A DNA stretch of 64,000 nucleotides from Pirellulales bacterium. GTDB taxonomy: Bacteria > Planctomycetota > Planctomycetia > Pirellulales > PNKZ01. Both the position numbers and the translations under genes were made by a program. This document shows, one piece after another, positions 41,203-61,652 of this stretch (position 1 is its first letter; each line of letters begins with the position of its first letter). The stretch lies in NCBI GenBank assembly GCA_036268995.1, contig DATATB010000137.1, forward strand, positions 55,164-119,163. Reading direction: 5' to 3'. The notes under the pieces were generated by a model. That model saw only the letters and a program-made list of their open reading frames with translations, was not told where the DNA came from and did not search any database.

Positions 41203-41381
41203 CAGCGCTTCAGCGGTTGGTAGCGCCCGACGGCAACGGGCGGTTGGCGCAAAGCTTGACTTGTGTGCCGCGACCAATAAAGATCGAACAAGGTGCGATC
41301 TTTCGCTTGCCGGGGACTTTAGGGGCATGCCCAGCGATGGGCAAAATCCCGGGCTTCGCGGTCGCCGCTGCTGGAGAACGC

Positions 41382-42395
41382 ATGGACTCACGGCTGACCA
41401 CGCGCGTGCTCGAGTCGCCGGCAGACGAAGCCCAGTGGCGAGAGCCTTCCGCGGCCTCACTCCAGAATTCCTCCGGGCAACTCTCTTATTTTCTGGTCGC
41501 GTTGACCACGGTGGTCGTACCGATCCTCGGGCTGTTTGCCGCCGGAATCTCCTTCTGGCACCAAGGCATCAGCGCGGTCGATCTCTCGCTGGCGATCGTC
41601 ATGTATCTCGTGACCGTGCTCGGCGTCGAGCTGGGGTTTCATCGCTATCTCACACACCGATCGCTGAAAACCACGCCCGCGCTGCGTGCCCTGATGACCG
41701 TCTGTGGCTGCATGGCAGCGCATGGGCCGCCGATCTGGTGGGTAGCCATTCATCGCCGTCATCACAACTACAGCGACCACGACGGCGACCCTCATTCTCC
41801 CAACCTGCATGGCGAGACGCTGTGGCAGCAGCTCAAGGGCGGCTGGCACTCGCATGTGGCCTGGATGTTTCGCCCACGATACACGGCAGCCCACGCGGCC
41901 CACTTCGCCAAAGACCTGCTGGGCGATCGCACGCTCGTCGCGATCGATCGCTGGTACGCGTTCTGGGTCGTACTGGGCCTCGCCATTCCCGCTGGCCTGG
42001 GCGGATGGATCGGCGGAACCTGGGCGGCAGCCTGGACTGCCTTGCTCTGGGGCGGTCTGATGCGCATGTTTGTCGGGCAGCACGCGCTGTGGTGGGGCAT
42101 TGTCACCGTGTGCCATCGCTACGGCACCCGACCTTTCCAGAGCAACGACGATAGCAAGAACAACGTGCTGATCGCCGTGCTGTTTCTGGGCGACGGTTGG
42201 CACAACAACCATCATGCGTTTCCCAGTTCAGCACGCGTCGGATTGCGCTGGTGGGAGGCGGACTTCACCTGGTGGGTGATCCGCGGCCTGGAGCGCTGCG
42301 GCCTGGTGTGGGATGTGAAAGTTCCCTCGAGCAAGGCCATCGGCGAGAAGCTCGTCGGCGTTACACCACTGTCAGGTGTAAATACGCAAATGTAA
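41382..42395 (+). CDS. Acyl-CoA/acyl-lipid desaturase (membrane, Delta9-type family), paralog 1
   Basis: His boxes HRYLTH, HRRHHNYSDHDGDPHSP, HNNHHAF; ATG at 41382 with GGAG SD (alternative ATG at 41337); 3' end overlaps convergent KASIII gene by 35 nt. Confidence 0.85.
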   Translation: MDSRLTTRVLESPADEAQWREPSAASLQNSSGQLSYFLVALTTVVVPILGLFAAGISFWHQGISAVDLSLAIVMYLVTVLGVELGFHRYLTHRSLKTTPALRALMTVCGCMAAHGPPIWWVAIHRRHHNYSDHDGDPHSPNLHGETLWQQLKGGWHSHVAWMFRPRYTAAHAAHFAKDLLGDRTLVAIDRWYAFWVVLGLAIPAGLGGWIGGTWAAAWTALLWGGLMRMFVGQHALWWGIVTVCHRYGTRPFQSNDDSKNNVLIAVLFLGDGWHNNHHAFPSSARVGLRWWEADFTWWVIRGLERCGLVWDVKVPSSKAIGEKLVGVTPLSGVNTQM

Positions 42396-43497
42396 ACCGG
42401 GCGCTTTCCGGCACGACGCACATGATGCGTTGCCCGCGCTCGAGCCGGCCGGAAGTCAGCAATTCTTCGAGCATGATGAAGATCGAAGCCGCGCCGGTAT
42501 TCCCTTTGCGAGACAGGTTGGTAAACCACCGCTCGTCGGGAATGGCAAAGTCGCAGGCGGCCAGCATCTCCGCAATCGGCCGGCGAAACACTTCGCTCGA
42601 CAAATGCGGCAGCAGCCAATCCACCTGGTCCGCGTGCATGGCCCGGCGCTCGCGGATTTCGAGAAGCGATCGGCGGAATGCGACGGGGACGATGTTTTTC
42701 TCGAGCAGCCGGGTGTCCTGCGACAAGTTGAGATAGCCCTGCTCCAGCAATTCGGTGAGCTGCGTTTCGGCGCGCCAGCCGCGGAGCGAACCGTCGGTTT
42801 GCTTCACGGCTCCCGAATACATGCACGTTTCCAGTTCACCGGCAAAGGAAAGAATATCCAACCAATCGATCCTCAGGCTGGGGCCGCCGCTGCGCGGCTG
42901 ATCGGCCAGCAGCATGGCTCCCGCTCCGTCGGAAAGCATCCAGCGCAGGAACTCGTGCTCGAAGGCCAGAAACGGGTTCTCATCGACACGCGCCTCGATT
43001 TGCGACTGGAAGTGGCTGGCCCGCAGCGCGGTCGAAGCCAGCTCCGAACCCGTCACCACCGCTCGAGTCGTCGCGCCGTTGAGGATGCTGAGATAGGCAT
43101 ACTTCAAGGCCGTCATGCCCGAACAACAAACGCCGGCCGTGGAAACGATCTCGCATGGCGGCCAGCGCAGCAGCCCCTGCACCATGGCCGCATGATTGGG
43201 AATCCACTGATCCGGCGAGGAGGTACCGCAGCTCAGCAGTTGCACGGGCGCCGTGTTCGGATCGGCGGCCATCGCCTGCCGGATGGCTGCGACCGTCAGC
43301 TCGGCGTTGGTGTGCGTTTGCTCGCCGGTGTGCCGATCGATGGCGTAGTGACGCGACTGGATGCCGTTGCGCATCAGGACCACGTCTTTTAGCCGCGAAG
43401 GCCTGCCGCCGACCACGCCCAACACCGACTCGATTTCGTCGTTGCCGACGGGCGCGTTGGGCAGGCAGCATCCCAGCCCGGTGATGTATGCGGGCAT
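42361..43497 (-). CDS. FabH-like beta-ketoacyl-ACP synthase III family condensing enzyme
   Basis: 378 aa; thiolase-fold with Cys (AGVCCSGMTA), His and Asn (RKGNTGAASIFIMLEE) triad regions; ATG immediately follows PKS stop (TAGATG). Confidence 0.8.
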   Translation of the reverse strand: MPAYITGLGCCLPNAPVGNDEIESVLGVVGGRPSRLKDVVLMRNGIQSRHYAIDRHTGEQTHTNAELTVAAIRQAMAADPNTAPVQLLSCGTSSPDQWIPNHAAMVQGLLRWPPCEIVSTAGVCCSGMTALKYAYLSILNGATTRAVVTGSELASTALRASHFQSQIEARVDENPFLAFEHEFLRWMLSDGAGAMLLADQPRSGGPSLRIDWLDILSFAGELETCMYSGAVKQTDGSLRGWRAETQLTELLEQGYLNLSQDTRLLEKNIVPVAFRRSLLEIRERRAMHADQVDWLLPHLSSEVFRRPIAEMLAACDFAIPDERWFTNLSRKGNTGAASIFIMLEELLTSGRLERGQRIMCVVPESARFTFAYLHLTVV

Positions 43498-46653
<3,156 letters not shown>

Positions 46654-46657
46654 GTGC

Positions 46658-49600
46658 TTATCCACCGGCCCCTTGTGTTTGCGCGCCGCCCCCCGCGCGG
46701 CGCAGCGTCGCCAATTCACCGGCCAGCAGCCCGGCAATTTCGTCGTCGGTCATCCTTTCCAGGTCGGAATCGGCGGCCTCGTCCGGACCAGTCGAACCGC
46801 GCGCGTCGCCATTGGCAGAATGCTCGGCGGTTCGCTGCGTGAGATGCTCGGCGAGCGCTTCGAGCGTCGGGTAATCGAATAGCAGGGTCGTGGGCAGGGG
46901 AGCGGCAATCGCCACCTCCAGCGCATTACGCATTTCCACGGCCATCAGCGAGTCGAGTCCCAGCTCGCGCAGCGGTTGTCGCGGATCGATCGCACGCGGG
47001 TCGGCTAGCCCCAACGCGTGGGCAGCCATTTCGCTCAAATGTGTGATCGCGACCGCGCCGCGTTGGGATTGCGGCGCGGCTTCCATTCGCTGCCGAAGAT
47101 CACCGGCCGCGCGCTGGGCAAGGCTCGCCGTGCGGGGCGTCGAGGCAACGGCGGCCAACAGCGGCGCGGCCGCGTGGGGCAATCGCTCGAGAAACTTTGG
47201 CCAGTCCACCGGCAAGACCGCGACCTGCGGCTCCTGCTGACCGAGCAGACGTTCCAGCGCTTGCAAGCCAGCCTCCGGTGCGATCGGCTGCAAGCCGGCC
47301 AGGTTCCGGCTGGCGTGGGCCGCGGCCATGCCCACTTCGCTCCAGGGCCCCCAATTGATGCTCAGGCCCGGCAGCCCTTGCCGTTGGCGCTCGTGGATGA
47401 GGGCATCTTGAAACGCGTTGGCGGCGCTATAGTTGATCTGGCCAGGCGATCCGATGAGCGCCGCAATCGATGAAAAGCAGACGAAGAAATCCAGCGGCAA
47501 CGCACGCGTGGCGGCATGCAGGTTCCAGGTTCCCGCCACCTTCGGGCGCAACACGTGCTCGAAGCGTTGCGACGACTGCTGCGCGATCGTGGCGTCGTCC
47601 AGAACGCCCGCGGCGTGCATCACCCCGGCCAGCGGCGGGAGCTTCGAGAGCGTGCCGCGAAACACGCGATCGACGTCGCCCGGCTCAGCCACGTCGGCCT
47701 GGACGGTGACGACTTGGGCGCCGGCCTTTCGCAGGCGGAGAAGCAATTCAGTAGTGGCGGGCGTCGGCGGGCTTCGTCCCAGCAGGACGAGGTGGCGGGC
47801 CCCGCGCTCGATCATCCACTCCGCGAGCTTCAACCCCAGCCCTCCCAATCCGCCCGTGACGAGGTAACTAGCGTCGTCGCGGAACAGCGGCTCGGCTCTG
47901 ACCGCGACGGGCTGTGTCAGCACAACCTTGCCGATATGGCGTGCCTGAGCCATCCAACGGAACGCGCTGGGTGCCTGCTGGATCGAAAACGCCTGGCAAG
48001 GCAACGGAGACAGCGAGCCGGCATCGAATTCGGCCATCAGCATGGCGAGTGTGGCGTGAATCAACTCGGGCTGCCGGTGGCTAAGCTCGACCAGGTCGAG
48101 CACGAAATACTCCACGCCGGGATTCAGGGCTTTGGCTTGCGCCGCGTTCCAGATGCCGGTTTTGCCGATCTCGATAAATCGGCCGCCGAGCCGCAGCAGC
48201 TCCAAGCTGCGTGGAATGAACTCGCCGGCCAGCGAATTAAGGACGATGTCCAGGCCTTGGCCGTGGGCGCGCCGAACATCATTGGCAAAGTCGAGCGTCC
48301 GCGAATTCATCACGTGCGGAACGCGGCAAGCCGAAAGTAGCTCGCGCTTCAGGACGCTGCCGGCCGTGGCGAACACGACGGCCGCCGCTCGCTGAGCGAG
48401 CTGCACCGCGGCTAGACCGACTCCACCGGTGGCCGCATGGATCAGCACACGATCTCCAGCGGCCATGCGTCCATGCTGGTTTAGCGCCAGCCAGGCCGTG
48501 AGAAAGGCAATCGGAGCCGCCGCCGCTTCCGCGAACGTGAGACTTCGGGGCTTCGTAGCGACGAACAAGGCGGGCACGGTCACGAAGGTGGCGAAGCTGC
48601 CTTGGGCAATGGCCACCACCTCAGTGCCGGGCTGCAAGCCTTCGACGCCGCTTCCCACGCTGACGACGACACCGCTGCACTCGCCGCCCAGGGGCCCAGC
48701 ATCGCCCGGGTACATGCCCAGGGCATTGAGCACGTCGCGAAAATTAAGCCCTGTGGCTCGCACTTCGATTTCGACTTCGCCCGGTCCGGGAGGCCGCCGC
48801 TCGACGGGTCGCAACACGAGATGATCAAGCACACCTCGCCCAGCCGTGTCGAGCTGGCACGCCGCGGCCGCGGGAAGCTCGAGCCGCCTCGACGTTTCCG
48901 CCGGCTCGTCTGCCAAACGAACCAGTCGAGCGGCATACCGCTGACCGGCGCGATAAGCCAGTTGGTTCTCGGCCCCGCCGGCGTCCATCTCGGCGAGCAG
49001 CGCCGCCGCGAGTTCGTCGGGCGTGCCGGCAGGATCGAGGTCAAGATGCCGGCAATTCAGTTTCGGAGCCTCGAGCGCAAGGGTTCGCGCCATGCCGGCC
49101 AGCGGCGCTTGCCCGAGCGATTGCGGCACAGCCTGTGGTCCCACAGCGGCAACTCCGCCGGTCACCAGCCAGAGATTCGGCACGTCGGCGGTTGCTCGCT
49201 CCAGGGATTGCACCAGATGCAGCAAGCCGGCGCACGAAGCTTGGACCGATGCGGACAATTCCGAGCCAGCTTGTGCGAAAATCGATTCACGATCGGGGCT
49301 CGCCAGGTAGACGACATTTCGCGGGTGCGAGCCAGCCTGATCGACGTCTTTCAGCACGCGTTGCCAATTTTGCGCATTCGCGAAGATGCACGTTTCGTGG
49401 CGAGCGGCGATTTGTTCACACAGCGTGGCGGCCCAGGGACTGCCATCGGAAATGATGATGCGCGGTCCGATTTGGCGTTTGGCCGGGCCGGCTGGCGCAG
49501 GAGGCTGCGGTTGCCACTGGACTTTGTATAGCCACTGCGCGATTGGGTCGCTGGGCGCGGCTTGGGCAGCGAGTCCTGCCGTCCGGATCAAGTTCAGCCC

Positions 49601-53122: not shown

Positions 53123-53123
53123 C

Positions 53124-53519
53124 TCAACCCTCGTCTGATACTTCCGCGTCGCTACCGAGTCCTGCACCTGGATCTGTTTGCTCGCCCAGGGCAAGAAAGC
53201 GGGCGAGATCCGCAATCGTTGGATAATCCCAGGCCAGCGTGGGCGAAAGACGCCGGCCCAGCAAGCGCTCCAGTTCGCCCGACAGCTTGATGGCCGCGAG
53301 ACTGTCCAAGCCATAGCTCGCAAACGGCGTGTGGATATCGATGTCGGCCTCGGGCGTGCCAAGCACCGCTGCCAGGCGGGCCGCGAGCCAATCCTCCAGC
53401 GTTTCGGCGCAGAGCGGCTTATCCGCCGGCCACGCAGGTGGCTTTCTCTGCGGCAGCAACCGTAACAAGCTGCGCAGGATCGAACCCGATTCGATATCTT
53501 GCGATCGATCGATAGACAC
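53124..53519 (-). CDS. Discrete acyl carrier protein (PP-binding)
   Basis: 131 aa in a different frame from the PKS; phosphopantetheine site FASYGLDSLAAIKL; ends TGA, 1 nt before the PKS ATG; start codon GTG (uncertain). Confidence 0.7.
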   Translation of the reverse strand: MSIDRSQDIESGSILRSLLRLLPQRKPPAWPADKPLCAETLEDWLAARLAAVLGTPEADIDIHTPFASYGLDSLAAIKLSGELERLLGRRLSPTLAWDYPTIADLARFLALGEQTDPGAGLGSDAEVSDEG

Positions 53520-53859
53520 GGTCGACGGTCTCCCAATGAAGCCGCCGAAGAGGGACCGGCTTCGTCACTTCTCAGGTTGCCGCGGCGCGCGGTCAAACCC
53601 GACGTGAACGATGCGATCGCGTCCGGCCCGGACGGGTCCTCGCTCAGCACCACTCACGGCCACTGCGCAGGAGTCCGGTCCATCGCCAGCGGTGGCGAAC
53701 CGGAAGTTCGTCGAAAGTGCCCCAATTCAGCTGAAATCAAACCAACACCTTGGCTGAGATCGTAACATATTGTCTCTTGCTTCGCTAAAGTAATCAACTA
53801 GGCTGTTGAATGTTCCATGGCATGAGTCTTATTGGGCAGTTCACTAGACTTTGCCGACG
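53520..53859. promoter_or_regulatory. Divergent intergenic region between ACP-PKS operon (-) and FAAL-desaturase operon (+); presumed bidirectional promoter
   Basis: 340-nt noncoding gap flanked by divergently oriented first genes of two translationally coupled operons. Confidence 0.4.
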
Positions 53860-55644
53860 ATGACGTCCAATCCCATCCAGCCGGACATCGCCGCTGCCGA
53901 CCCCTCATGGCAGACGTTGGCGGAATTGATTGCCGATCGGGTCCAGCAAGCTCCCGACTTGGAGCTGTATTCGTTTCTGATCGACGGTGAGCGTCAGCGA
54001 GTTTTGCTCTCCTGCGCGGCGTTGGCGCGCCGTGTCAATTCGGTCGCCGCCTGGTTGCTCGCTTCTACGCGACCAGGAGATCGAGTCCTCATTCAAACGC
54101 CGCCCGGGCTCGACTTCGTGGTCGCCTTCTTGGGGTGCGTCGGCTGCGGGCGCATTGCCGTACCGGTTTTTCCGCCCCAAATGCAGCGTAAGCAGCGTGG
54201 GACGGATCGGTGGCAATCCATTTTTGATTCTGCCGAGCCTGCCGCGGCCCTCACAACGCAGCCGGCCGCCAATCCTGCACATGAGCTGGCCGTGCCGTAT
54301 CTCGAGGTTGATCGGCACGCGAGTCCGGACGCTCCCGATGCGTTGCTCGGGTGTGATGTTCGGCCCGACATGCCGGCCATGATTCAATACACGTCGGGTT
54401 CGACCACCGCGCCGCGCGGAGTGGTGCTGACGCATCGAAATCTGCTACACAATTTGGCTCACATTTGCCGACGTTTCGGTCACACGTCTGCCAGTCGAGG
54501 CGTGATTTGGCTTCCCCCCTATCACGACATGGGTTTGATTGGCGGCATCCTGCAGCCGATTTATGCGGGCTTTCCGGTGTTGCTGATGTCGCCATTGCAT
54601 TTTCTTCAGCAGCCCGTGCGCTGGCTGCGCGCGATTTCGGAGTTCGGCGGCACGACGAGCGGCGGTCCCAATTTCGCCTACGAAATGTGTGCCCAGCAGA
54701 TCACACCGGAAGATTGCGCGGGACTCGATCTCAGCCGCTGGGAAGTGGCATTTGTCGGCGCCGAGCCGGTGGCCGCCAAGACCCTCGATCGTTTCGCAGC
54801 GGCGTTCGAACCCTACGGTTTTCGCCGCCAGGCTTTTTACCCCTGCTATGGTCTGGCGGAAGGCACGCTATTGGTGTCCGGAGCGAACAAGCTCCGAGGT
54901 ATCGCTATCCAAAATGTTTCCGCGGACGAGCTGGAATCGAATCGATTCAAGCCGTTGTCGCCGGGCGATGCCGCCGGTCGGCAACTCGTCGGCTGCGGCC
55001 ATTCGCTGGACGACCAGCAAATCCTCGTGGTCGATCCAGACACGTTGCGGCCAGTGAAGAACGATCAAATTGGCGAGATTTGGGTTCGCGGACCGAGCGT
55101 CGCGTCCGGTTATTGGAATTCGCCCCAGGCTACTCAGGCAACGTTCGGCGCGATACTCGCCGCCACGGGCGAAGGGCCGTTCCTGCGGACGGGCGACCTG
55201 GGATATCTGTGCGAGGGGCAACTATTCATCACCGGCAGGCTCAAGGATTTGATCATCCTGGCCGGTCGGAATCATTACCCGCAGGATATCGAACAGACCG
55301 TGCAGCAATGCCATTCGGCCATCCGGCGCGATGGCTGTGCGGCATTTGGCATCGAAATGGACGGCGAGGAGCAACTGGTCGTGGTGGCCGAAGTGCGGCG
55401 TCGCGCCGACCTGCGTCAAGGCGCTACCGACGATTGGAGGTTGGACAGCGAGGCCGAGGGCATTGAGCAATCGCCCGAGATCGTCGCAGCGATTCGTTCG
55501 GCGGTCTTTCAGCAGCACGGAGCCCGGGTCGCATCGGTCCAATTGGTGTCGGCGGCAAGCATCTTGAAGACCCCGAGCGGGAAGAAGCGACGGCAAGCGT
55601 GCCGTGCAAAATATTTGGCCGAGTGCGCGAAACAAGTCGTGTAG
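53860..55644 (+). CDS. Fatty acyl-AMP ligase (FAAL, FadD32-like adenylation enzyme)
   Basis: AMP-binding motifs YTSGSTTAPRGVVLTH, core TGDLG; FAAL-type insertion; ATG at 53860 (the listed ORF starts at a TTG at 53851). Confidence 0.85.
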   Translation: MTSNPIQPDIAAADPSWQTLAELIADRVQQAPDLELYSFLIDGERQRVLLSCAALARRVNSVAAWLLASTRPGDRVLIQTPPGLDFVVAFLGCVGCGRIAVPVFPPQMQRKQRGTDRWQSIFDSAEPAAALTTQPAANPAHELAVPYLEVDRHASPDAPDALLGCDVRPDMPAMIQYTSGSTTAPRGVVLTHRNLLHNLAHICRRFGHTSASRGVIWLPPYHDMGLIGGILQPIYAGFPVLLMSPLHFLQQPVRWLRAISEFGGTTSGGPNFAYEMCAQQITPEDCAGLDLSRWEVAFVGAEPVAAKTLDRFAAAFEPYGFRRQAFYPCYGLAEGTLLVSGANKLRGIAIQNVSADELESNRFKPLSPGDAAGRQLVGCGHSLDDQQILVVDPDTLRPVKNDQIGEIWVRGPSVASGYWNSPQATQATFGAILAATGEGPFLRTGDLGYLCEGQLFITGRLKDLIILAGRNHYPQDIEQTVQQCHSAIRRDGCAAFGIEMDGEEQLVVVAEVRRRADLRQGATDDWRLDSEAEGIEQSPEIVAAIRSAVFQQHGARVASVQLVSAASILKTPSGKKRRQACRAKYLAECAKQVV

Positions 55645-55646
55645 CA

Positions 55647-56606
55647 ATGTTGATATCTGAAACGAATTCGCCTCCACTCGTGGCCCAAGCCCGTGGCTCG
55701 GCGCGGCGGCTGCAACAGTGGCTGACACTCGTCATGGTGATCGCGCCGGTGTTAGGCGTAGTTCTGGCGATCATCATGCTGTGGGGTCGCGGTGTCGATG
55801 GACTCGACGTCATGCTGTTGGTCGGGATGTACGTCGCGACCGTGTTGGGCGTGGAGGTGGGACTTCATCGGCATTTTTCGCATCGCGCCTTTCAGACGTT
55901 TCCTTGGATGCGAGCTGGATTGGGCGTCTTCGGATCGATGGCGGCGCAGGGGCCCGTGCTGTTTTGGGCTTCGGTTCATCGGCGACATCATGCCTATAGC
56001 GATCGGGAAGGCGATCCCCATTCACCGCGCGCGCAGGGCGCGGGCTGGCGCGGACGCCTGCGCGGACTGTGGCACGGTCATCTCGGTTGGTTATTTCAAT
56101 TTGAGGTGACCGACCTGGCTGCTTACGCGCCGGATCTGCTGCGCGATCGATTGGTGTTTAACCTGAGCTACCTCTATCCGATTTGGGTGCTGTTGGGTTT
56201 GTTATTGCCGGCCGTGCTGGGAGGCGTGATCTCTGGGAGTTGGGTCGGAGCCGCGACTGGCTGCCTGTGGGGCGGGCTGGTCCGCGTGTTTCTGGTGCAC
56301 CACGCGACGTGGAGCGTCAATTCGCTGTGTCACACGTTTGGCAGCCGGCCATTCCGCACGCGCGACCAGAGCACCAACAATCCTTGGCTGATGCTGAGCT
56401 CGCTCGGCGGCTCGTGGCACAACAATCATCATGCATTTCCACACGCGGCGCTGAATTCGTTGAGGTGGTGGCAATTGGACCCGTCGGGATGGCTGATTCA
56501 GCTCCTGCGAGCCGTGGGCCTGGTTTGGGACGTGCGCGTGGCTGATTGGCGCCCAAGCGGTTTCCAGGCGGCGCAGTCTTTGGCTAAGGGCGATCAGATG
56601 GGTTAA
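55647..56606 (+). CDS. Acyl-CoA/acyl-lipid desaturase, paralog 2
   Basis: His boxes HRHFSH, HRRHHAYSDREGDPHSP, HNNHHAF; ATG 2 nt after FAAL stop. Confidence 0.85.
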   Translation: MLISETNSPPLVAQARGSARRLQQWLTLVMVIAPVLGVVLAIIMLWGRGVDGLDVMLLVGMYVATVLGVEVGLHRHFSHRAFQTFPWMRAGLGVFGSMAAQGPVLFWASVHRRHHAYSDREGDPHSPRAQGAGWRGRLRGLWHGHLGWLFQFEVTDLAAYAPDLLRDRLVFNLSYLYPIWVLLGLLLPAVLGGVISGSWVGAATGCLWGGLVRVFLVHHATWSVNSLCHTFGSRPFRTRDQSTNNPWLMLSSLGGSWHNNHHAFPHAALNSLRWWQLDPSGWLIQLLRAVGLVWDVRVADWRPSGFQAAQSLAKGDQMG

Positions 56607-56628
56607 GTTCAACGGGGTAAGCAGGACG

Positions 56629-57606
56629 ATGGGGCAGCAAAGTCACAATCCGATTCCCGGCGTCGCGCGCGCCAGGCCAATTGCCCGGCGCTGGCAGCAG
56701 TCGATTGCGCTGGCCGTGGTCGCGCTGCCCATCATCGGGGTCGTCGCGGCCGTGGCACTCTGGTGGCGAGTCGGGATTGGTGCCTTGGAATTGGGCGCGC
56801 TGGCAGGCATGTTTTTCGTTTGCATGCTGGGCGTGACGGTCGGCTTTCATCGCCACTTTGCCCACAATTCTTTCAAGACGAGCCGTGCCGGCCGGGCGCT
56901 GCTGATCGTTCTGGGATCGATGGCAGCGCAGGGTCCAGTATTGTTTTGGGTGGTCACGCATCGACGGCACCACGCCTTCAGCGATCAGGAAGGCGACCCT
57001 CACTCGCCCAACTTGCACGGCGGCGATTGGACCGGCCTGCTCGTGGGACTGTGGCATTCGCACATCGGCTGGATGTTTTCGGACGAACTTACCGATTGGG
57101 TGCACTTCGGTCGCGATCTGCTGCAAGATCGAATGATTTTTCGCCTGCATCGCCTGTACGCGCTGTGGGTCATGCTGGGCCTGGTCCTGCCGGCGGCCGT
57201 TTGCGGCCTGATCGGTGGCACCTGGCTGGCGGCCTTGCAAGGCCTTCTGTGGGGCGGCCTGGTCCGCATGTTCATGGTGAACCAGGCAAGCTGGTGCGTG
57301 GGCTCGGTTTGCCACGTCTTCGGAACACGTCCGTTCCAGACGCGCGATCGCAGCGCCAACAACTACCTCGTAGCGCTGCTGACGTTTGGCGAGGGATTGC
57401 AGAATAACCATCACGCGTTTCCCAGTTCGCACGCCCATGCCGTCTGGTGGTGGGAGCCCGACCTCAGCGCCTGGGTGATTCGCATGCTTGAATTCTGCGG
57501 ACTCGTGTGGGACGTGAAGCGGCCGACGGCGCGGGCCGTCAGCGAGTTGCGCGCGGTTCCGTCGGTTGCTTCAGAGCTAGAGTTGAACCGGGGCGCTAAT
57601 GGCTGA
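56629..57606 (+). CDS. Acyl-CoA/acyl-lipid desaturase, paralog 3
   Basis: His boxes HRHFAH, HRRHHAFSDQEGDPHSP, HNNHHAF; highly similar to paralog 1. Confidence 0.85.
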   Translation: MGQQSHNPIPGVARARPIARRWQQSIALAVVALPIIGVVAAVALWWRVGIGALELGALAGMFFVCMLGVTVGFHRHFAHNSFKTSRAGRALLIVLGSMAAQGPVLFWVVTHRRHHAFSDQEGDPHSPNLHGGDWTGLLVGLWHSHIGWMFSDELTDWVHFGRDLLQDRMIFRLHRLYALWVMLGLVLPAAVCGLIGGTWLAALQGLLWGGLVRMFMVNQASWCVGSVCHVFGTRPFQTRDRSANNYLVALLTFGEGLQNNHHAFPSSHAHAVWWWEPDLSAWVIRMLEFCGLVWDVKRPTARAVSELRAVPSVASELELNRGANG

Positions 57607-58453
57607 ACCTCATACCAATCCGACCGCTGCACCACGCAAGCGAGCTCTCGTCACCGGGGCCAGCACCGGCATCGGCGCGGCTTTTGCCCAACAACTTGCC
57701 GGCTTGGGATACGACCTGATACTTGTTGCCAGGACCAAAAGCCTGCTGGACGAGCTCGCGCGGAAGTTGCACGATCGCCATGGATCGGAAGTCACGGTGG
57801 TCGCGGCCGATTTGAGCACTAAGGAAGGCCAGTCAACCGTCGTTCGCCTCGTCGCGAGCGACCCGGGCTTGTCCATGTTGGTGAATGCAGCAGGCAGCGC
57901 CAACTGGGGTAATCACGCGGACCTGGAAGTTGCCGGCGAAGTCGCCTTGATTGAGTTGAACGTCGTGGCCTTGGTGCGGCTGACCAAGGCGGCGTTGCCA
58001 GCCATGTTGGCTCGCGGCCAAGGCGCGATCATCAACGTGGCCTCGCTGTCGTCGTTCGCGCCCATACCTTCGATCGCTACTTATTGCGGAACAAAATCCT
58101 TCGTGGCGAATTTTACCGAGTCGTTGTACGAAGAGCTTCGCGGAACCGGGGTCTACGTGCAGGCTCTTTGCCCGGGCTTCACGCGCACCAATATCTTTGC
58201 CCGGGCCGGAGCCAATGAGCGGCGCGTGCCCAAGATTCTGTGGCAAACACCGGAAGCGGTCGTTCGTTGTTCGTTGAAAGCCCTGCGACGCCGACAAGCG
58301 CGGTGCGTCCCAGGACTGCGGAATTACGTGTGCATGCTTTGGGTGCTCTGGATGCCGCGCTGGATGTCGCGGCATATCGCGAGCAACCTGCTAGGCCGCT
58401 TTGAGAAACTGGAGCCGCGCCCGCCCGAGCGTGCGGCGCCCGTCACCACGTGA
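57599..58453 (+). CDS. SDR-family oxidoreductase (classical short-chain dehydrogenase/reductase)
   Basis: TGASTGIGAAFA Rossmann motif, catalytic YxxxK region (YCGTK); overlaps desaturase stop by 8 nt. Confidence 0.8.
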   Translation: MAEPHTNPTAAPRKRALVTGASTGIGAAFAQQLAGLGYDLILVARTKSLLDELARKLHDRHGSEVTVVAADLSTKEGQSTVVRLVASDPGLSMLVNAAGSANWGNHADLEVAGEVALIELNVVALVRLTKAALPAMLARGQGAIINVASLSSFAPIPSIATYCGTKSFVANFTESLYEELRGTGVYVQALCPGFTRTNIFARAGANERRVPKILWQTPEAVVRCSLKALRRRQARCVPGLRNYVCMLWVLWMPRWMSRHIASNLLGRFEKLEPRPPERAAPVTT

Positions 58454-58475
58454 CTAGACAGGACCTGATACTCGC

Positions 58476-59042
58476 ATGACGACCGAAGCTATTTCTTCCG
58501 TGATGCCGACTCCATCGGACGTGGCGGCCAGGCGCGGCCTGGCGCGTATTCCGCTCGTCGTGCGGATGCTGTTCTATGGCATGTTCTTTCTGGCCGTGGT
58601 TTTGTTGGGCATTGCCGGGCTGAATTATCAAATTGACCGTATCTGGCCAGCATGCCACATCGAGGTTGGCGCCTGGCGGTGGGTGGGAGCGGCGCTGTTC
58701 GCGGCTTCGTTGAGCGTTTACGTCTGCACGGCCGTGTTGCTCAGCCGGCTAGGTGAAGGGGCGTTTGCCGAATTCGACCCACCGAGCCGCTTTGTGCGTG
58801 TGGGGCCGTACCGTTGGGTGCGAAATCCCATTTCGCTCTGCGTGCTGGCGATGATTCTCGGCGAAGCGCTGGCCCTTTCCAGCACCGGGATCTTCCTGAT
58901 GCTTTTCGTGTCGATGGTCATCGCCCATCTGCAAGCGACCCACCTCGAGGAGCCGCTGCTGCTGCGGCGCTTCGGCCAGTCCTACGCCGACTATCGAACC
59001 GAGGTGCCGCGTTGGATTCCACGCAGACCAAAGCTCTCATGA
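58476..59042 (+). CDS. ICMT/PEMT-family membrane methyltransferase
   Basis: 188 aa, 4-5 TM helices; C-terminal motif VRVGPYRWVRNPISL ... E typical of isoprenylcysteine carboxyl / phospholipid methyltransferase family. Confidence 0.55.
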   Translation: MTTEAISSVMPTPSDVAARRGLARIPLVVRMLFYGMFFLAVVLLGIAGLNYQIDRIWPACHIEVGAWRWVGAALFAASLSVYVCTAVLLSRLGEGAFAEFDPPSRFVRVGPYRWVRNPISLCVLAMILGEALALSSTGIFLMLFVSMVIAHLQATHLEEPLLLRRFGQSYADYRTEVPRWIPRRPKLS

Positions 59043-60304
59043 CGCGCGAGCGGGCCTCTCCACCTTTGAACGTGCTGCTCTTCGGGCTGGGCAGCCGCGG
59101 CGACGTGCATCCGTTTTTTGCCTTAGGACAGGCCCTGCAAGCGCGCGGCCATCACATCACCTTCCTGACCTTGGGCTACTTCTCGGAGCAGGCACGGCGG
59201 CTGGGTTTCGAGGTCGTCGAAGTCGGCAGTGCCGACGATTATTTGAAGTGGGCGCTGCACCCAGACTTGTGGCATCCGCGCCGCGGCTTTCGGGTGATGG
59301 CGGAAATCACACGGCTAATCAGCGCCACGATTTATCGAGAAATCGAGGCGCGTTACGAGCCGCGGCGCACGCTCATCGTCGGGACATGTTCGATATTCGC
59401 CGCCCGGGTCGCCCAGGAAAAGTTGGGTGTCCCCTTGGTCACCGCAGTCTTGCAACCTGCCCTGTTCTTCAGCACGCACGAGTCACCCACCTTGCAGCCC
59501 TTTATGGCGGGCATTAATCGTTATCCGCGCTGGGTGAGGCGACTGGCGATGGGCGCGGCCGGCTTAACGATGGATCGGGCCTTGGGCCCAGCGGTCAACG
59601 AATTTCGAGCCAGCGTCGGACTGCCGCCGGTTCGAAATCTTTGTGATTGGTGGTTTTCTCCCCAAGCCGTCGTGCCGCTTTTTCCCGAGTGGTTCGCCGC
59701 ACCGCAGCCGGACTGGCCTGCCAATCTGCGGATGGCGAGCTTTCCGTTCTACGACGGATCGAATTTCGCGGCGCCGTCAGAAGAGTTGGCGGAGTTCATC
59801 GCGTCGGGCGATCCGCCACTGGTTTTCACGCCGGGTTCGGGAGCGCGCAATGCCAGGCAGTTCTTCACTGCCAGCGTCGAAGCTTGCCGCCTGCTCAAGC
59901 GGCGCGGGATTCTACTCACGCCGTTTGAGGATCAAATTCCGCCATTGTACGACGAGGTGCGGCACGAGCCATTCGTGAACCTCGAGTGGCTGCTGCCACG
60001 CTCGGCCGCGATGATTCACCACGGCGGCATCGGCACGGCGGCCGACGCGCTGCGAGCCGGCCGGCCGCAGTTGCTCATGCCCATGGCTTTCGACCAGCCT
60101 GACAACGCGGCCCGCTTGCGACGTCTGGGCGTCGGACGCTCGCTGGCGCCGCGTCACTTCACCGGCCCAAGGGTCGCCCGAGTCTTGTCCGCCTTGCTCG
60201 AATCGGCGGAGGTGGCGAGCCGCTGCCGCGACTATGCCAACCGGTTGCAAGGCGCCATGGATCTGCGTGTGGGCTGCGAACTCATCGAGTCATTGGGAGG
60301 TTGA
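59039..60304 (+). CDS. Glycosyltransferase family 1 (UDP-glycosyltransferase/MGT-like GT-B)
   Basis: 421 aa; N-terminal LLFGLGSRGDVHPFFALGQAL and C-terminal UGT signature IHHGGIGTAADALRAGRPQLLMPMAFDQPDNA; ATGA overlap with upstream gene. Confidence 0.8.
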   Translation: MTRERASPPLNVLLFGLGSRGDVHPFFALGQALQARGHHITFLTLGYFSEQARRLGFEVVEVGSADDYLKWALHPDLWHPRRGFRVMAEITRLISATIYREIEARYEPRRTLIVGTCSIFAARVAQEKLGVPLVTAVLQPALFFSTHESPTLQPFMAGINRYPRWVRRLAMGAAGLTMDRALGPAVNEFRASVGLPPVRNLCDWWFSPQAVVPLFPEWFAAPQPDWPANLRMASFPFYDGSNFAAPSEELAEFIASGDPPLVFTPGSGARNARQFFTASVEACRLLKRRGILLTPFEDQIPPLYDEVRHEPFVNLEWLLPRSAAMIHHGGIGTAADALRAGRPQLLMPMAFDQPDNAARLRRLGVGRSLAPRHFTGPRVARVLSALLESAEVASRCRDYANRLQGAMDLRVGCELIESLGG

Positions 60305-61652
60305 ACACCGAACGGGCGACTTCATTTTCTTGCTCGGCAGGCTTGGGCGGCGGCATTTCGCAATTACAGTCGAGCGCCAGGCAGCCTTGGGCCTGGTGCA
60401 ATTTCACCACGGCGATGCGCCAGTCGACCGCACGGCGAGTCAGCTCGTGTTCGGCTTGAATCACGGCGAGTTGCGCTGCGGCGTGATCGAAGGCCGTGGC
60501 GGCGCCGATCGCTTGCTTCGCTTCCGAGCGGCTTAAATCGCGCTGGCGGGATTCCAAAGCGTGCTTGGCCGCGGCGACATCGCGCACGCGCATTTGCACG
60601 TCCAGCACCTGGCCGTGGATCTCGTCGATCACCGATTGCTGCGCTGCCCAGAGCATTTGCGCCAGTTGCTGCCGGCGGACCGCGATTTCGCGGTCCTCGA
60701 GCTCGTGGTGCCGAATGTGCCGGACGGCGATCGCGGATCCCAGCGCACTATCCTGTTGTCCCAATGCGGCCCGGGCCACCGGAAGTGTATCGCGATCGAG
60801 CGCCCCCAGGATCAGTCGCAGACTCTGCAACTCTGTGCGCTGTGCCAAAGCCAGCGCCGTTGCGCCTTCGACGTCCGGCGATTGCGGGATCGGACGCAAA
60901 TCGGCCTGCGGCCAGATGGGTCTAGGATCGGCGGCATCGATGGCCAATAAGTTTCGCAATTGAATATTTAAGCGCGCGACGGTGGTCAGGGCTTCGGCCC
61001 GCTGGTTCAAGACGACGATTTCGCGATCCTGGAGCGCATCAATATCCCCCGGCGATTGCCCGGTGAGCCGCTTGATGCGCTCGTGATCGGCAATCATGTT
61101 CCGCACTTCGATCAGGGTACGATCCGTGGCGTCGCACGCCGCCTCGGCCGCCGCCAGCTCGTAAAAAGCCGTCAGCGCCTGGCTGGCCGCTTCGTTACTC
61201 CGCGAGGCAGCCCGCAATGCCAGGAGTTGCCGCTGGACGGCGGCCAGGTGTTGCTTGCCGGCGCAGTGGCCAGACGTGAGCTGCACGGTCAGGCCGCGCT
61301 CCATTTGCAGGAGGGACGCGGCCTTGGCATAGCCCGCGGCACGGCAGCGGCACTCGTCGGGCGACACCTGCATGTAATGATCCGGACGGCCGCCGGATGC
61401 CAGGTTTCGATCAACTTCCCGCCAGGAGCCGACCTGCGAAACGTCCGCGTGGATCTGGCCTCGCGGTGCCAAACCTTCTGCGGCAACGACGCCTGTCGTG
61501 GCGGTGCTCGACCGCGTCCAGCAGCGATGCGTTGCGGCGCGGTCCGACGCGCAGCCCAAAACCAGGGCCGCGTGCAAGACCAGGAGCATTCGTTTCGACC
61601 GTTGTCGCCGCATGCGAGTCGTTTCCAGGGCATCGCGGGAAAAAGCGCGCAA
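60282..61652 (-). CDS. Outer membrane efflux protein (TolC/OprM-family OMF), probable lipoprotein
   Basis: Lipobox LVLGCAS after MRRQRSKRMLLVLHAA (likely start ~61613); coiled-coil two-repeat architecture, C-terminal ...LHQAQGCLA resembling OMF ends. Confidence 0.5.
   Translation of the reverse strand: MRAFSRDALETTRMRRQRSKRMLLVLHAALVLGCASDRAATHRCWTRSSTATTGVVAAEGLAPRGQIHADVSQVGSWREVDRNLASGGRPDHYMQVSPDECRCRAAGYAKAASLLQMERGLTVQLTSGHCAGKQHLAAVQRQLLALRAASRSNEAASQALTAFYELAAAEAACDATDRTLIEVRNMIADHERIKRLTGQSPGDIDALQDREIVVLNQRAEALTTVARLNIQLRNLLAIDAADPRPIWPQADLRPIPQSPDVEGATALALAQRTELQSLRLILGALDRDTLPVARAALGQQDSALGSAIAVRHIRHHELEDREIAVRRQQLAQMLWAAQQSVIDEIHGQVLDVQMRVRDVAAAKHALESRQRDLSRSEAKQAIGAATAFDHAAAQLAVIQAEHELTRRAVDWRIAVVKLHQAQGCLALDCNCEMPPPKPAEQENEVARSVFNLPMTR

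What the first reader, a model, noticed from the sequence alone, without database searches (positions are those of the whole stretch)
41337..60304. Compact FAAL-ACP-type I PKS-KASIII-desaturase-GT lipid biosynthetic locus (hglE-like) with unknown product
Two divergent, tightly coupled operons. Minus operon: discrete ACP (53124-53519) -> KS-AT-DH-ER-KR-ACP (46658-53122) -> KS-DH-ACP (43498-46653) -> FabH-like KASIII (42361-43497). Stop/start spacings are 1, 4 and 0 nt. Plus operon: FAAL (53860-55644) -> desaturase -> desaturase -> SDR -> ICMT-family methyltransferase -> GT1 glycosyltransferase. A third desaturase (41382-42395) converges on KASIII. This combination predicts a FAAL-primed, PKS-elongated, desaturated and glycosylated very-long-chain lipid. 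It is analogous to heterocyst-glycolipid (HglE), PUFA or mycoketide logic. No planctomycete pathway with exactly this architecture is known to me. Planctomycetes are reported to make unusual very-long-chain (hydroxy) fatty acids and polyunsaturated hydrocarbons, whose genetics are largely unresolved. An OMF plus MacB-type ABC exporter immediately downstream could export the product.
Basis: partly seen in the sequence, partly recalled or inferred. Interest (0 to 1): 0.8.

Follow-up and report, generated by a model that had tools for sequence, protein, structure and literature searches.

The report
PKS-fed DarB lipid gene cluster
This is a conserved planctomycete gene cluster that most likely builds and exports a sugar-decorated ring-headed lipid (a dialkyl-cyclohexanedione or resorcinol with an unsaturated tail), a new variant of a known pathway type whose product nobody has seen, and not a heterocyst-glycolipid-like very-long-chain lipid.

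Summary
The genes, coordinates and domain calls are confirmed. The whole locus, exporter included, recurs in the same order in a second, divergent planctomycete contig (31-71% protein identity).

Three parts of the interpretation change:
- The "FabH-like KASIII" is a StlD/DarB-family head-to-head ketosynthase. It scores above the NCBIfam cut-off, aligns full-length to the StlD crystal-structure sequence, and keeps 64 of 65 family-conserved positions.
- The large PKS is Mas/Pks2-like, not HglE/PUFA-like.
- FAAL, ACP and the desaturases form a JamABC/polyyne-type starter cassette. Des1 and Des2 are reciprocal best matches of the first two desaturases of a canonical seven-gene polyyne cassette, and Des2 shares its QNNHH box.

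In all seven related loci, a PKS module without a ketoreductase sits directly upstream of DarB. That module should deliver a 3-oxoacyl-ACP, the known DarB donor.

The most likely product is an O-methylated, glycosylated 2,5-dialkyl-cyclohexanedione or -resorcinol lipid with an unsaturated, possibly acetylenic, tail. A MacB-type ABC/MFP/TolC system would export it.

No DarA aromatase lies within about 72 kb. This is a new variant of a known kind, an orphan "resorcinol"-type cluster.

The parts
41382..42395 (+). Des3, a membrane desaturase of the JamB-like paralogue group. It converges on darB, and the two 3' ends overlap by 35 nt.
   Evidence: Pfam FA_desaturase E 6e-22. His boxes are HRYLTH, HRRHH and HNNHH. 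An orthologue sits in the same convergent position in L088, at 67% identity.
42361..43497 (-). StlD/DarB-family head-to-head beta-ketosynthase. It is the predicted off-loading and ring-forming enzyme.
   Evidence: NCBIfam NF005293 scores 523.6 bits against a cut-off of 450. The full-length match to StlD (PDB 5GK0) has E 1e-122 and conserves the Cys124, His and Asn motifs. It keeps 64 of 65 family-conserved positions. It lies in a clade of PKS-coupled DarBs with 96/100 NJ bootstrap support.
43498..46653 (-). PKS2, the terminal module KS-DH-ACP. It has no AT and no KR, and is predicted to produce a 3-oxoacyl-ACP.
   Evidence: Pfam domains. The KS motifs (Cys, His, His), the DH motifs (HxxxGxxxxP, YGP, DxxxQ) and the ACP DSL motif are intact. 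Orthologues lack a KR in every related locus. Their DH is lost or inactivated in some.
46658..53122 (-). PKS1, a fully reducing module KS-AT-DH-ER-KR-ACP with Mas/Pks2-like architecture. It has a malonyl-type AT.
   Evidence: Pfam domains. Motifs: GHSLG and HAFH in the AT, LDD and YxxxN in the KR, HAATGGVG in the ER. It is colinear with the NCBIfam Pks2 model over positions 1-2083 of 2086.
53124..53519 (-). Discrete loading ACP (JamC/CayD-like), 1 nt upstream of PKS1.
   Evidence: PP-binding E 1e-18, with a GLDSL motif. It is 49% identical to the ACP of a canonical polyyne cassette.
53520..53859 (.). Divergent intergenic region, 340 bp long, between the ACP-PKS-DarB operon and the FAAL-tailoring operon. 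It is the presumed promoter region.
   Evidence: Read directly from the sequence. The same divergent layout occurs in L093. Promoter function was not tested.
53860..55644 (+). Fatty acyl-AMP ligase (JamA/CayA-like).
   Evidence: AMP-binding and DIP2-like C-terminal domains. The top NCBIfam hits are FAAL families. The best PDB matches are FAALs: 7R7G at E 6e-144, then a Legionella FAAL, FadD32, FadD23 and FadD28. In L093 it is fused to Des1 in one 906-aa protein.
55647..56606 (+). Des1, a JamB/CayB-type acyl-ACP desaturase.
   Evidence: FA_desaturase. It is the reciprocal best match (55%) of the first desaturase of the Streptomyces goshikiensis seven-gene polyyne cassette. Its third box is HNNHH.
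56629..57606 (+). Des2, a CayC-type acyl-ACP desaturase with QNNHH as its third box.
   Evidence: FA_desaturase. It is the reciprocal best match (49%, 315 bits) of the second polyyne-cassette desaturase, which also carries QNNHH.
57599..58453 (+). Short-chain dehydrogenase/reductase. It is a candidate ring-ketone reductase, a substitute aromatase or a trans-acting KR.
   Evidence: adh_short E 7e-43. The best NCBIfam match is mycolate reductase, at 228 bits and below its cut-off. The L093 orthologue is 49% identical. Its role is inferred.
58476..59042 (+). Membrane methyltransferase of the PEMT/ICMT family.
   Evidence: PEMT E 3e-10. There is a weak match to isoprenylcysteine O-methyltransferase. 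The L093 orthologue is 57% identical. As a precedent, SrsB of the alkylresorcinol operon is annotated as an ICMT (PMC6669644).
59039..60304 (+). GT1-family glycosyltransferase, related to the MGT, EryCIII and RhlB types.
   Evidence: EryCIII-like_C, Glyco_transf_28 and UDPGT domains. The L093 orthologue is 49% identical and in the same position.
60282..61613 (-). Divergent TolC-family outer-membrane factor, probably a lipoprotein. The start codon could be at 61613 or 61589.
   Evidence: It has an LVLGC lipobox. A family profile hits TolC structures at E 2.5e-5, and 37 of 50 relatives hit Pfam OEP. The gene is conserved in L093 at 31% identity. NCBI names a 65%-identical relative 'TolC family protein'.
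61787..62542 (+). ABC exporter ATPase of the LolD/DevA/MacB type.
   Evidence: ABC_tran E 1e-34. NCBIfam scores are 195 bits for LolD and 191 bits for DevA, both below their cut-offs. The L093 orthologue is 62% identical.
62551..64000 (+). MacB-type permease (MacB_PCD plus FtsX), cut off by the window end. A membrane-fusion protein follows it on the source contig.
   Evidence: Pfam domains. L175 is 100% identical to the window and shows a 773-aa permease followed by a 396-aa YknX_C membrane-fusion protein. L093 has the same order.

Best explanation
This is a biosynthetic gene cluster of a Pirellulales planctomycete for a head-to-head-condensed, decorated lipid.

Inferred pathway:
1. The FAAL adenylates a fatty acid and loads it on the discrete ACP.
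2. The three JamB/CayB/CayC-type membrane desaturases unsaturate the ACP-bound chain. They may introduce triple bonds.
3. PKS1 (KS-AT-DH-ER-KR-ACP, malonyl-specific) extends the chain with full reduction. It may act more than once.
4. PKS2 (KS-DH-ACP) adds one more malonyl unit, probably supplied by the PKS1 AT. Because PKS2 has no KR, the chain stops as a 3-oxoacyl-ACP.
5. The StlD/DarB ketosynthase joins this 3-oxoacyl thioester to a 2-enoyl thioester by Michael addition plus Claisen condensation. The enoyl partner could come from fatty-acid synthesis or from the same assembly line. The reaction releases a 2,5-dialkyl-4-carboxy-cyclohexane-1,3-dione.
6. The ring is either kept as a cyclohexanedione or aromatised to a dialkylresorcinol.
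7. The SDR, the ICMT-type methyltransferase and the GT1 glycosyltransferase modify it.
8. A MacB-type ABC transporter, a membrane-fusion protein and a TolC-like factor export it to the outer membrane or the medium.

Shown here: gene and domain content, motif integrity, family memberships, conserved synteny, and the absence of DarA, a thioesterase, a rubredoxin and a terminal KR.

Inferred: substrate flow, the source of the enoyl partner, alkyne formation, the ring oxidation state, and the sites of methylation and glycosylation.
For: DarB identity:
- NF005293 scores 523.6 bits, above the 450 cut-off.
- The match to StlD (PDB 5GK0) is full length at E 1e-122, with the Cys, His and Asn motifs conserved.
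- 64 of the 65 positions that are at least 95% conserved in 78 other DarB homologues are retained.

Position and coupling:
- darB follows PKS2 with 0-nt spacing.
- Related loci L001, L003, L088, L089, L090 and L177 all have a PKS module directly upstream of darB, and no KR segment is detected in it.
- 3-oxoacyl and 2-enoyl thioesters are the established DarB/BrtD substrates (PMC6836626).
- In the metagenome loci scanned, DarB homologues up to about 55% identical to the window protein mostly have a DarA-like gene immediately upstream and no PKS. Those 60% identical or more are PKS-coupled. The PKS-coupled set forms a clade with 96/100 support.

Starter cassette:
- Des1 and Des2 are reciprocal best matches of the two desaturases that follow the FAAL in a canonical FAAL-Des-Des-ACP-Des-hydrolase-rubredoxin polyyne cassette. 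Des2 shares the QNNHH box.
- CayB and CayC are JamB-related and act on ACP-bound chains (PMC9828172).
- FAAL and Des1 are fused in L093.
- The ACP gene lies 1 nt upstream of PKS1.

The locus as a unit:
- All 14 genes are syntenic in L088/L093 at 31-71% identity.
- The exporter is completed by a membrane-fusion protein just beyond the window.

Precedents:
- The bartoloside and putative microcarbonin clusters combine DarB with glycosyltransferases or desaturases and DevBCA-type exporters.
- An ICMT-type methyltransferase (SrsB) acts on alkylresorcinols.
Against: - No DarA aromatase lies within about 41 kb upstream or 29 kb downstream of darB. The ring state is therefore unknown. A 2019 review cautions that DarA-less DarB homologues may not make carboxy-cyclohexanediones.
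- The source of the 2-enoyl partner is not encoded in an obvious way. The PKS2 DH has intact motifs but no cognate KR, and it is mutated (His to Tyr) or deleted in orthologous loci.
- The polyyne cassette's third, delta-12-like desaturase, its thioesterase and its rubredoxin are absent. Triple-bond formation is therefore not assured.
- No product, transcript or enzymatic data exist. Everything is inferred from sequence.
Confidence: 0.6

Rival explanations
1. The DarA-less, PKS-coupled DarB homologue does not make a cyclohexanedione. Instead it joins the 3-oxoacyl-ACP to a second acyl thioester by Claisen condensation alone. That would give an alpha-pyrone, as in PpyS/CorB/MxnB chemistry, or another non-carbocyclic head group, which is then methylated and glycosylated.
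For: - No DarA is present in the window or in five of the six other PKS-coupled loci.
- The review in PMC6836626 notes that DarA-less DarB homologues may have different products.
- PMC10088813 treats 'dialkylresorcinol/pyrone-forming enzymes' together.
- A KR-less terminal module is equally suited to pyrone formation.
Against: - Known pyrone-forming ketosynthases (CorB, MxnB) fall in clades distinct from DarB (PMC5506619).
- The window enzyme keeps 64 of 65 DarB-family conserved positions, and only one conservative clade-specific change was found (Tyr to Phe at position 340).
- Its clade includes a DarA-adjacent DarB (L006), and one PKS-coupled locus (L001) has DarA 2.4 kb away.
Confidence: 0.15
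2. A FAAL-primed, PKS-elongated, desaturated very-long-chain fatty acyl chain is glycosylated as a linear lipid, in the manner of HglE, PUFA synthases or mycoketide. The KASIII acts as an ordinary initiating or elongating FabH.
For: - FAAL, ACP, a fully reducing PKS module, desaturases, a glycosyltransferase and an exporter are all present.
- PKS1 has the Mas-like architecture used for long-chain lipids in mycobacteria.
Against: - The 'KASIII' matches FabH models only weakly (91 bits against a cut-off of 249) but passes the StlD/DarB model.
- The PfaA match is partial and below its cut-off, and there is no CLF, tandem ACP or PfaD.
- No thioesterase or reductase is present to release a linear chain.
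- The terminal module lacks a KR in all related loci, which suits a 3-oxo donor rather than a saturated lipid.
Confidence: 0.07
3. Two independent pathways happen to lie next to each other. One is an alkyne or polyyne fatty-acid cassette (FAAL, ACP, desaturases). The other is a separate PKS-DarB pathway.
For: - FAAL-Des-Des-ACP cassettes occur on their own elsewhere (L091 and L092).
- The GT family also occurs outside such clusters (L094).
Against: - There is no thioesterase or rubredoxin to finish a free polyyne acid.
- The ACP is translationally coupled to PKS1, with 1-nt spacing.
- FAAL, desaturases, ACP, PKS and DarB co-occur in different gene orders in L001, L088/L093 and L090.
Confidence: 0.05

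Closest known systems
Bartoloside (brt) cluster of Synechocystis salina
   Same: A DarB homologue (BrtD) condenses a 3-oxoacyl-ACP with a 2-enoyl-ACP. Glycosyltransferases decorate the ring, and a DevBCA-like glycolipid exporter is encoded alongside (PMC6836626).
   Different: - brt has the DarA aromatase BrtC and a CylC halogenase.
- It has no FAAL, no dedicated ACP, no PKS and no desaturases. Both chains come from primary fatty-acid synthesis.
- Here a dedicated FAAL-ACP-PKS line feeds DarB, and DarA is absent.
Putative microcarbonin A cluster of Microcystis (DarAB, two desaturases, DevBCA, an oxygenase)
   Same: DarB is combined with desaturases thought to install triple bonds in an alkyl chain, plus an ABC-type exporter.
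   Different: - The microcarbonin assignment is itself unproven.
- That cluster has DarA and no FAAL, ACP, PKS or glycosyltransferase.
Canonical darABC / stlCD systems (Pseudomonas DAR, Photorhabdus stilbene, flexirubin DAR moiety)
   Same: The ketosynthase family is the same. The window protein aligns full-length to the StlD structure sequence at E 1e-122 with the Cys, His and Asn motifs conserved.
   Different: - In the canonical systems DarA/StlC lies immediately next to DarB, as in most of the more distant DarB homologue loci scanned here.
- Their substrates come from fatty-acid metabolism.
- Here a KR-less PKS module takes the place of the DarA gene directly upstream of darB.
JamABC alkyne cassette and the bacterial seven-gene polyyne cassette (cay, pgn, ccn)
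   Same: - FAAL, a dedicated ACP and JamB-related membrane desaturases act on an ACP-bound chain.
- In jamaicamide biosynthesis the chain is passed to a PKS.
- Des1 and Des2 are reciprocal best matches of the CayB and CayC positions.
   Different: - There is no delta-12-like third desaturase, thioesterase or rubredoxin here.
- The third desaturase is a paralogue of the JamB-like type.
- The chain is not released as a free acid.
Cylindrocyclophane pathway (CylA FAAL, CylB ACP, type I PKS, resorcinol-forming terminator)
   Same: The logic is the same: a FAAL and ACP prime a type I PKS whose product is off-loaded by a stand-alone ring-forming condensing enzyme rather than a thioesterase (PMC5707447, listed; pathway details from my own knowledge).
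   Different: The terminator there is a type III PKS (CylI), which makes a monoalkylresorcinol from malonyl-CoA units. Here a DarB fuses two acyl chains.

Membership tests
StlD/DarB family beta-ketosynthase | Full-length match to the curated family model above its cut-off. | tested here: met
   NF005293 scores 523.6 bits against a cut-off of 450, covering residues 3-378. The narrower DarB 'exception' model scores 455 against a cut-off of 550 and is not met.
StlD/DarB family beta-ketosynthase | Cys-His-Asn catalytic residues and the family-conserved core, as seen in the StlD structure. | tested here: met
   The alignment to 5GK0 has E 1e-122, with Cys124, LPHLSSE and KGNTGAAS conserved. 64 of 65 positions that are at least 95% conserved in 78 homologues are retained.
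StlD/DarB family beta-ketosynthase | Catalyses Michael plus Claisen condensation of a 3-oxoacyl and a 2-enoyl thioester to a carboxy-cyclohexanedione. | not testable with these tools
   This needs an enzyme assay. It is inferred from family membership and from the KR-less upstream module.
Canonical darAB(C) dialkylresorcinol cassette | A DarA aromatase gene adjacent to darB. | tested here: not met
   tblastn with three DarA-like proteins finds nothing in the 64-kb window (E above 0.2) or in the 8.5 kb beyond it. Most canonical loci have DarA about 950 nt upstream. The reference proteins were identified as DarA-like by position and from the literature. No curated model exists for them.
JamABC-type alkyne cassette | Co-located FAAL, dedicated ACP and JamB-related membrane desaturase. 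| tested here: met
   All three are present. The desaturases are 49-55% identical to CayB/CayC-position enzymes, against about 38% to the more distant acyl-CoA desaturase hits such as those of Ralstonia. No direct comparison with JamB itself was possible.
Seven-gene bacterial polyyne cassette | A triad that includes a delta-12-like desaturase (CayE/PgnH), plus a thioesterase and a rubredoxin. | tested here: not met
   Nothing in the window resembles the third Streptomyces desaturase. No rubredoxin motif was found, and none of the locus genes scanned with Pfam is an alpha/beta hydrolase or a rubredoxin.
HglE / PUFA-synthase-type PKS | A PfaA-like multidomain protein with tandem ACPs, a KS-CLF pair, FabA-like DH domains and a PfaD-type ER. 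| tested here: not met
   The PfaA model scores 468 bits over part of the protein, against a cut-off of 1010. There is a single ACP per module, PS-DH-type DH domains and an MDR-type ER.
Mas-like (Pks2/Mas) fully reducing type I PKS | KS-AT-DH-ER-KR-ACP colinear with mycobacterial Mas-family synthases. | tested here: inconclusive
   PKS1 is colinear with the Pks2 model over positions 1-2083 of 2086, but scores 1177 bits against a cut-off of 2400. The AT motif HAFH predicts malonyl, not methylmalonyl. The architecture is shared, but PKS1 is not an equivalog.
MacAB-TolC / DevBCA-type tripartite exporter | An ABC ATPase, a MacB_PCD/FtsX permease, a membrane-fusion protein and a TolC-family outer-membrane factor. 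| tested here: met
   The membrane-fusion protein lies on the identical contig just beyond the window. The outer-membrane factor is supported by profile searches. The substrate is not testable.

The most novel reading that the evidence does not exclude
The locus makes a previously unseen class of planctomycete envelope lipid. The lipid would be a glycosylated, O-methylated 2,5-dialkyl-cyclohexanedione, not aromatised because DarA is absent, whose tail or tails carry conjugated ene-yne or diyne units installed on the ACP by a JamB-like desaturase trio. Both condensation partners could come from the same assembly line: 3-oxoacyl-ACP from the KR-less module, and 2-enoyl-ACP from the DH-containing module or from PKS1. 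In that case a modular PKS would be terminated by self-condensation of two of its own intermediates.
Probability: 0.25. Interest if true: 0.7.

Novelty: new variant of a known kind. Interest (0 to 1): 0.5.

Why it matters
DarB-type 'resorcinol' clusters are routinely counted by antiSMASH in planctomycete genomes. No product or role has been assigned to them in the papers I could search. This locus shows a defined, conserved sub-type in which a dedicated FAAL-ACP-desaturase-PKS line replaces primary metabolism as the supplier of DarB.

It gives a concrete, testable structural prediction: a two-chain, ring-headed glycolipid with an unusual unsaturated tail, exported by its own tripartite pump. 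It also gives a clean rule for finding relatives, namely a KR-less PKS module directly upstream of darB. If confirmed, it would add a PKS termination mode and a new lipid or natural-product class for a phylum whose chemistry is largely unknown. It would also help resolve what DarA-less DarB enzymes make.

Tried and rejected
- **Genome-contig scan with the PKS1 KS.** It returned 80 loci at 54-66% identity. Many are FAAL-ACP-KS loading cassettes from Acidobacteriota, Binatia, mycobacteria and cyanobacteria, and none has DarB.
- **Curated models for DarA.** Pfam and NCBIfam have none, and NCBI names these proteins 'hypothetical'. DarA-like references were therefore defined by their position next to darB and from the literature.
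- **Single-sequence AlphaFold2 of the putative outer-membrane factor.** The model was too poor to use (pLDDT 47.5). No fold search was run, and profile searches settled the question instead.
- **The StlD structure paper.** It is not held, so residue roles beyond the Cys-His-Asn triad were not checked.
- **Rubredoxin motif and hydrolase search in 38-64 kb.** Nothing was found.
- **Considered and rejected.** OleA-type hydrocarbon formation is rejected because the enzyme is not thiolase/OleA-like but aligns full-length to StlD at E 1e-122. Tetronate-type FabH chemistry is rejected because there are no glyceryl-ACP genes. A genomic-island origin is rejected because G+C is flat at 0.59-0.66 across the window and housekeeping genes lie nearby.

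Full report

Pfam confirms the minus-strand operon:
- PKS1 at 46658-53122(-) is KS-AT-DH-ER-KR-ACP.
- PKS2 at 43498-46653(-) is KS-DH-ACP.
- A discrete ACP lies at 53124-53519(-).
- A 378-aa thiolase-fold protein lies at 42361-43497(-).

On the plus strand there are an AMP-binding enzyme, two FA_desaturases, an SDR, a PEMT-family methyltransferase and a GT1 glycosyltransferase. A third desaturase at 41382-42395(+) converges on the 378-aa gene.

Reading the junctions confirms spacings of 1, 4 and 0 nt in the minus operon, and near-zero spacing or overlaps in the plus operon.

Motif inspection shows active-looking domains throughout:
- Both KS domains carry the Cys, His and His motifs.
- The AT has GHSLG and HAFH, which predicts malonyl.
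- Both DH domains have HxxxGxxxxP, YGP and DxxxH/Q.
- The ER has HAATGGVG.
- The KR is B-type, with LDD and YxxxN.
- All three carrier domains have the DSL motif.

**The key reassignment.** NCBIfam places the 'KASIII' in the StlD/DarB family (NF005293, 523.6 bits against a cut-off of 450). FabH models reach only 67-92 bits.

Against the PDB, the protein aligns over its whole length to the stilbene ketosynthase StlD (5GK0, E 1e-122). The Cys, His and Asn motifs are conserved.

I compared it with 78 other DarB homologues, including StlD. It retains 64 of the 65 positions that are at least 95% conserved.

DarB, BrtD and StlD do not elongate chains. They fuse a 3-oxoacyl thioester with a 2-enoyl thioester by Michael and Claisen reactions, giving a carboxy-cyclohexanedione. 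DarA then aromatises it to a dialkylresorcinol (PMC6836626 and PMC10088813).

**Source.** The DarB sequence is identical to HEX3657988.1 from a Pirellulales MAG. A JGI contig, L175, is 100% identical to the window over 12.2 kb and extends it by 8.5 kb. The rest of the window carries housekeeping genes (rpsB, tsf, pyrH, frr), a YTV-repeat protein and DUF1598, which fits a planctomycete chromosome. G+C is flat across the window.

**Conservation.** I looked at the neighbourhoods of DarB homologues 60-67% identical to the window protein. All have a PKS module directly upstream of darB, and tblastn with the window's domain segments finds no KR segment in that module.

| Locus | Gene order |
|---|---|
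| L001 | Des, KS-AT-DH-KR-ACP, KS-DH-ACP, DarB, then FAAL-Des-Des nearby |
| L003, L089 | ACP, PKS1, KS-DH-ACP, DarB |
| L088 | ACP, PKS1, KS-ACP, DarB, convergent Des3 orthologue |
| L090 | FAAL, three desaturases, ACP, KS-AT-DH-ACP, DarB |
| L177 | KS-DH-ACP, DarB |

L093 is the other half of the L088 contig. It carries the remaining genes in the window's order and orientation: a FAAL-Des1 fusion, Des2, SDR, PEMT-type methyltransferase, GT, a convergent unknown gene, ABC ATPase, MacB permease and a membrane-fusion protein. All 14 window genes have orthologues there at 31-71% identity.

The locus is a unit.

**A distinct sub-type.** A metagenome scan with DarB returned 80 loci.
- Homologues up to about 55% identical mostly have a roughly 305-aa gene with no Pfam match immediately upstream, about 950 nt away. 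I take this to be DarA. None of these loci has a KS, a FAAL or a JamB-like desaturase.
- Homologues 60% identical or more are the PKS-coupled ones. L178, at 59%, is again canonical.

In an NJ tree, the PKS-coupled DarBs plus one DarA-adjacent planctomycete DarB (L006) form a clade with 96/100 bootstrap support. This clade is nested among canonical DarBs, and StlD lies elsewhere in the tree.

DarA-like proteins are undetectable in the window, in its 8.5-kb extension, and in L003, L088/L093, L089 and L090. Only L001 has one, 2.4 kb from darB.

**The PKS.** PKS1 is colinear over its whole length with the mycobacterial Mas-like Pks2 model (1177 bits). It matches PfaA only partially (468 bits). The HglE/PUFA analogy therefore fails.

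PKS2 has neither an AT nor a KR. Its DH has intact motifs in the window. In orthologues the catalytic His is Tyr in L003, the DH is deleted in L088, and it is degenerate in L001. The conserved output of the terminal module is therefore most simply a 3-oxoacyl-ACP. That is exactly the DarB donor substrate. This is an inference.

**The desaturases.** A tblastn of Des1 against plasmids gave its best hit (54.5% identity) in a Streptomyces goshikiensis plasmid locus. That locus has the canonical polyyne cassette: FAAL, Des, Des, ACP, Des, alpha/beta hydrolase, rubredoxin, P450.

Pairwise BLAST shows reciprocal best matches:
- Des1 with the first Streptomyces desaturase (55%).
- Des2 with the second (49%).

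Des2, its L090 orthologue and the second Streptomyces enzyme share the unusual QNNHH third box.

[quoted passage not shown] It also states that the polyyne ACPs resemble mycobacterial PKS ACP domains (PMC9828172). Consistently, the best NCBIfam hit of the window ACP is the N-terminal ACP of Pks13.

The cassette's third, delta-12-like desaturase, its thioesterase and its rubredoxin are absent here. The window's third desaturase is a paralogue of the JamB-like type. The FAAL-Des1 fusion in L093 ties activation and desaturation together.

Alkyne formation is plausible but not shown.

**Tailoring and export.**
- The SDR's best model is mycolate reductase, below its cut-off. Its role is open: reduction of a ring ketone, surrogate aromatisation, or trans-KR activity.
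- The methyltransferase belongs to the PEMT/ICMT family. SrsB of the alkylresorcinol srsABC operon is annotated as an ICMT and acts on alkylresorcinols (PMC6669644).
- The GT is GT1. Relatives of this GT also occur outside such clusters (L094).
- The convergent 443-aa lipoprotein has no direct Pfam hit. It has 559 relatives. A profile of 50 of them hits TolC structures at matching positions (E 2.5e-5), and 37 of the 50 hit Pfam OEP.
- With the ABC ATPase, the MacB permease and the membrane-fusion protein just beyond the window, this is a complete tripartite exporter. It parallels the DevBCA-type exporters of the bartoloside and putative microcarbonin clusters.

**Mechanism proposed.**
1. The FAAL loads a fatty acid on the ACP.
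2. The desaturases modify it.
3. PKS1 extends it with full reduction.
4. PKS2 makes the 3-oxoacyl-ACP.
5. DarB condenses that with a 2-enoyl thioester and releases a dialkyl carboxy-cyclohexanedione.
6. The SDR, methyltransferase and GT decorate it.
7. The pump exports it.

Unresolved points:
- the source of the enoyl partner (fatty-acid synthesis, an ER-skipped PKS1 intermediate, or DH2 acting after a trans-KR);
- the ring oxidation state without DarA;
- whether triple bonds are made;
- the chain lengths.

**Comparison and novelty.** The closest systems are the bartoloside and putative microcarbonin clusters, canonical darABC/stlCD, JamABC and the polyyne cassettes, and the cylindrocyclophane logic.

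The 2019 review already noted orphan cyanobacterial DarB clusters with type I PKSs, and DarA-less DarBs. antiSMASH 'resorcinol' clusters are tallied in planctomycete genome papers without analysis. The 2024 study of planctomycete alkylresorcinols concerns type III PKSs and does not mention DarB.

I found no paper describing this FAAL-ACP-JamB-like-desaturase-PKS-DarB-GT architecture or a product for it.

I rate it a new variant of a known kind. It is of moderate interest, and it has a specific, testable product prediction.

Noticed in passing
L093:4848-7568: In the orthologous cluster, FAAL and Des1 are fused into a single 906-aa protein (AMP-binding, DIP2-like C-terminal domain and FA_desaturase). 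A soluble adenylating enzyme fused to a membrane desaturase argues for direct channelling of the acyl chain.
   Followed up: partly
window 43498-46653, compared with L003:6867-10004 and L088:7731-10004: The DH domain of the KR-less terminal module looks intact in the window. Its catalytic His is replaced by Tyr in L003, and the whole domain is deleted in L088. Either the domain is decaying or it has a lineage-specific role.
   Followed up: partly
L005:1-21152 (Mastigocladus laminosus): Here a canonical DarA-DarB pair sits inside a PUFA/heterocyst-glycolipid-like PKS cluster. That cluster has PfaD, a KS-only protein, a delta-12-like desaturase, an ACP, two PapA-like condensation enzymes and a glycosyltransferase.
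   Followed up: no
L001:12406-18079 and L178:4513-9940: In one lineage, DarA-DarB travels with ABC1-family kinase-like genes and with DUF6200 and DUF6312 proteins. L001 combines this neighbourhood with the PKS-coupled arrangement.
   Followed up: no
window 10273-12330 (+): A 685-aa protein is made of 17 YTV repeats (PF07639, E 9e-183). Its codon composition is unusual, with first-position G+C of 0.44 against about 0.65 in neighbouring genes.
   Followed up: no
window 34106-38554 (-): A 1482-aa protein carries TPR repeats and a C-terminal CHAT domain, a caspase-like protease. It lies about 3 kb upstream of the cluster and is not conserved next to the cluster in L088.
   Followed up: no
window 14183-17680 (-): A 1165-aa ORF has gene-like codon bias (GC3 0.80) and no Pfam match at E 1e-5.
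   Followed up: no
L008-L087 (genome-contig scan): Collinear FAAL, discrete ACP and type I PKS loading cassettes, with KS domains 54-66% identical to PKS1, are widespread. They occur in Pyrinomonadaceae and other Acidobacteriota, Binatia, mycobacteria and cyanobacteria. None has DarB within 10 kb.
   Followed up: partly
L091:10106-17683 (Streptomyces goshikiensis plasmid): A canonical seven-gene polyyne cassette plus a P450 sits on a linear plasmid of about 510 kb. Next to it are pabB, two AMP-binding enzymes and FAD-dependent oxidoreductases, which suggests a hybrid polyyne product.
   Followed up: no
window 42361-42395: The convergent des3 and darB genes overlap by 35 nt at their 3' ends. 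No terminator can lie between them, and antisense interference is possible.
   Followed up: no
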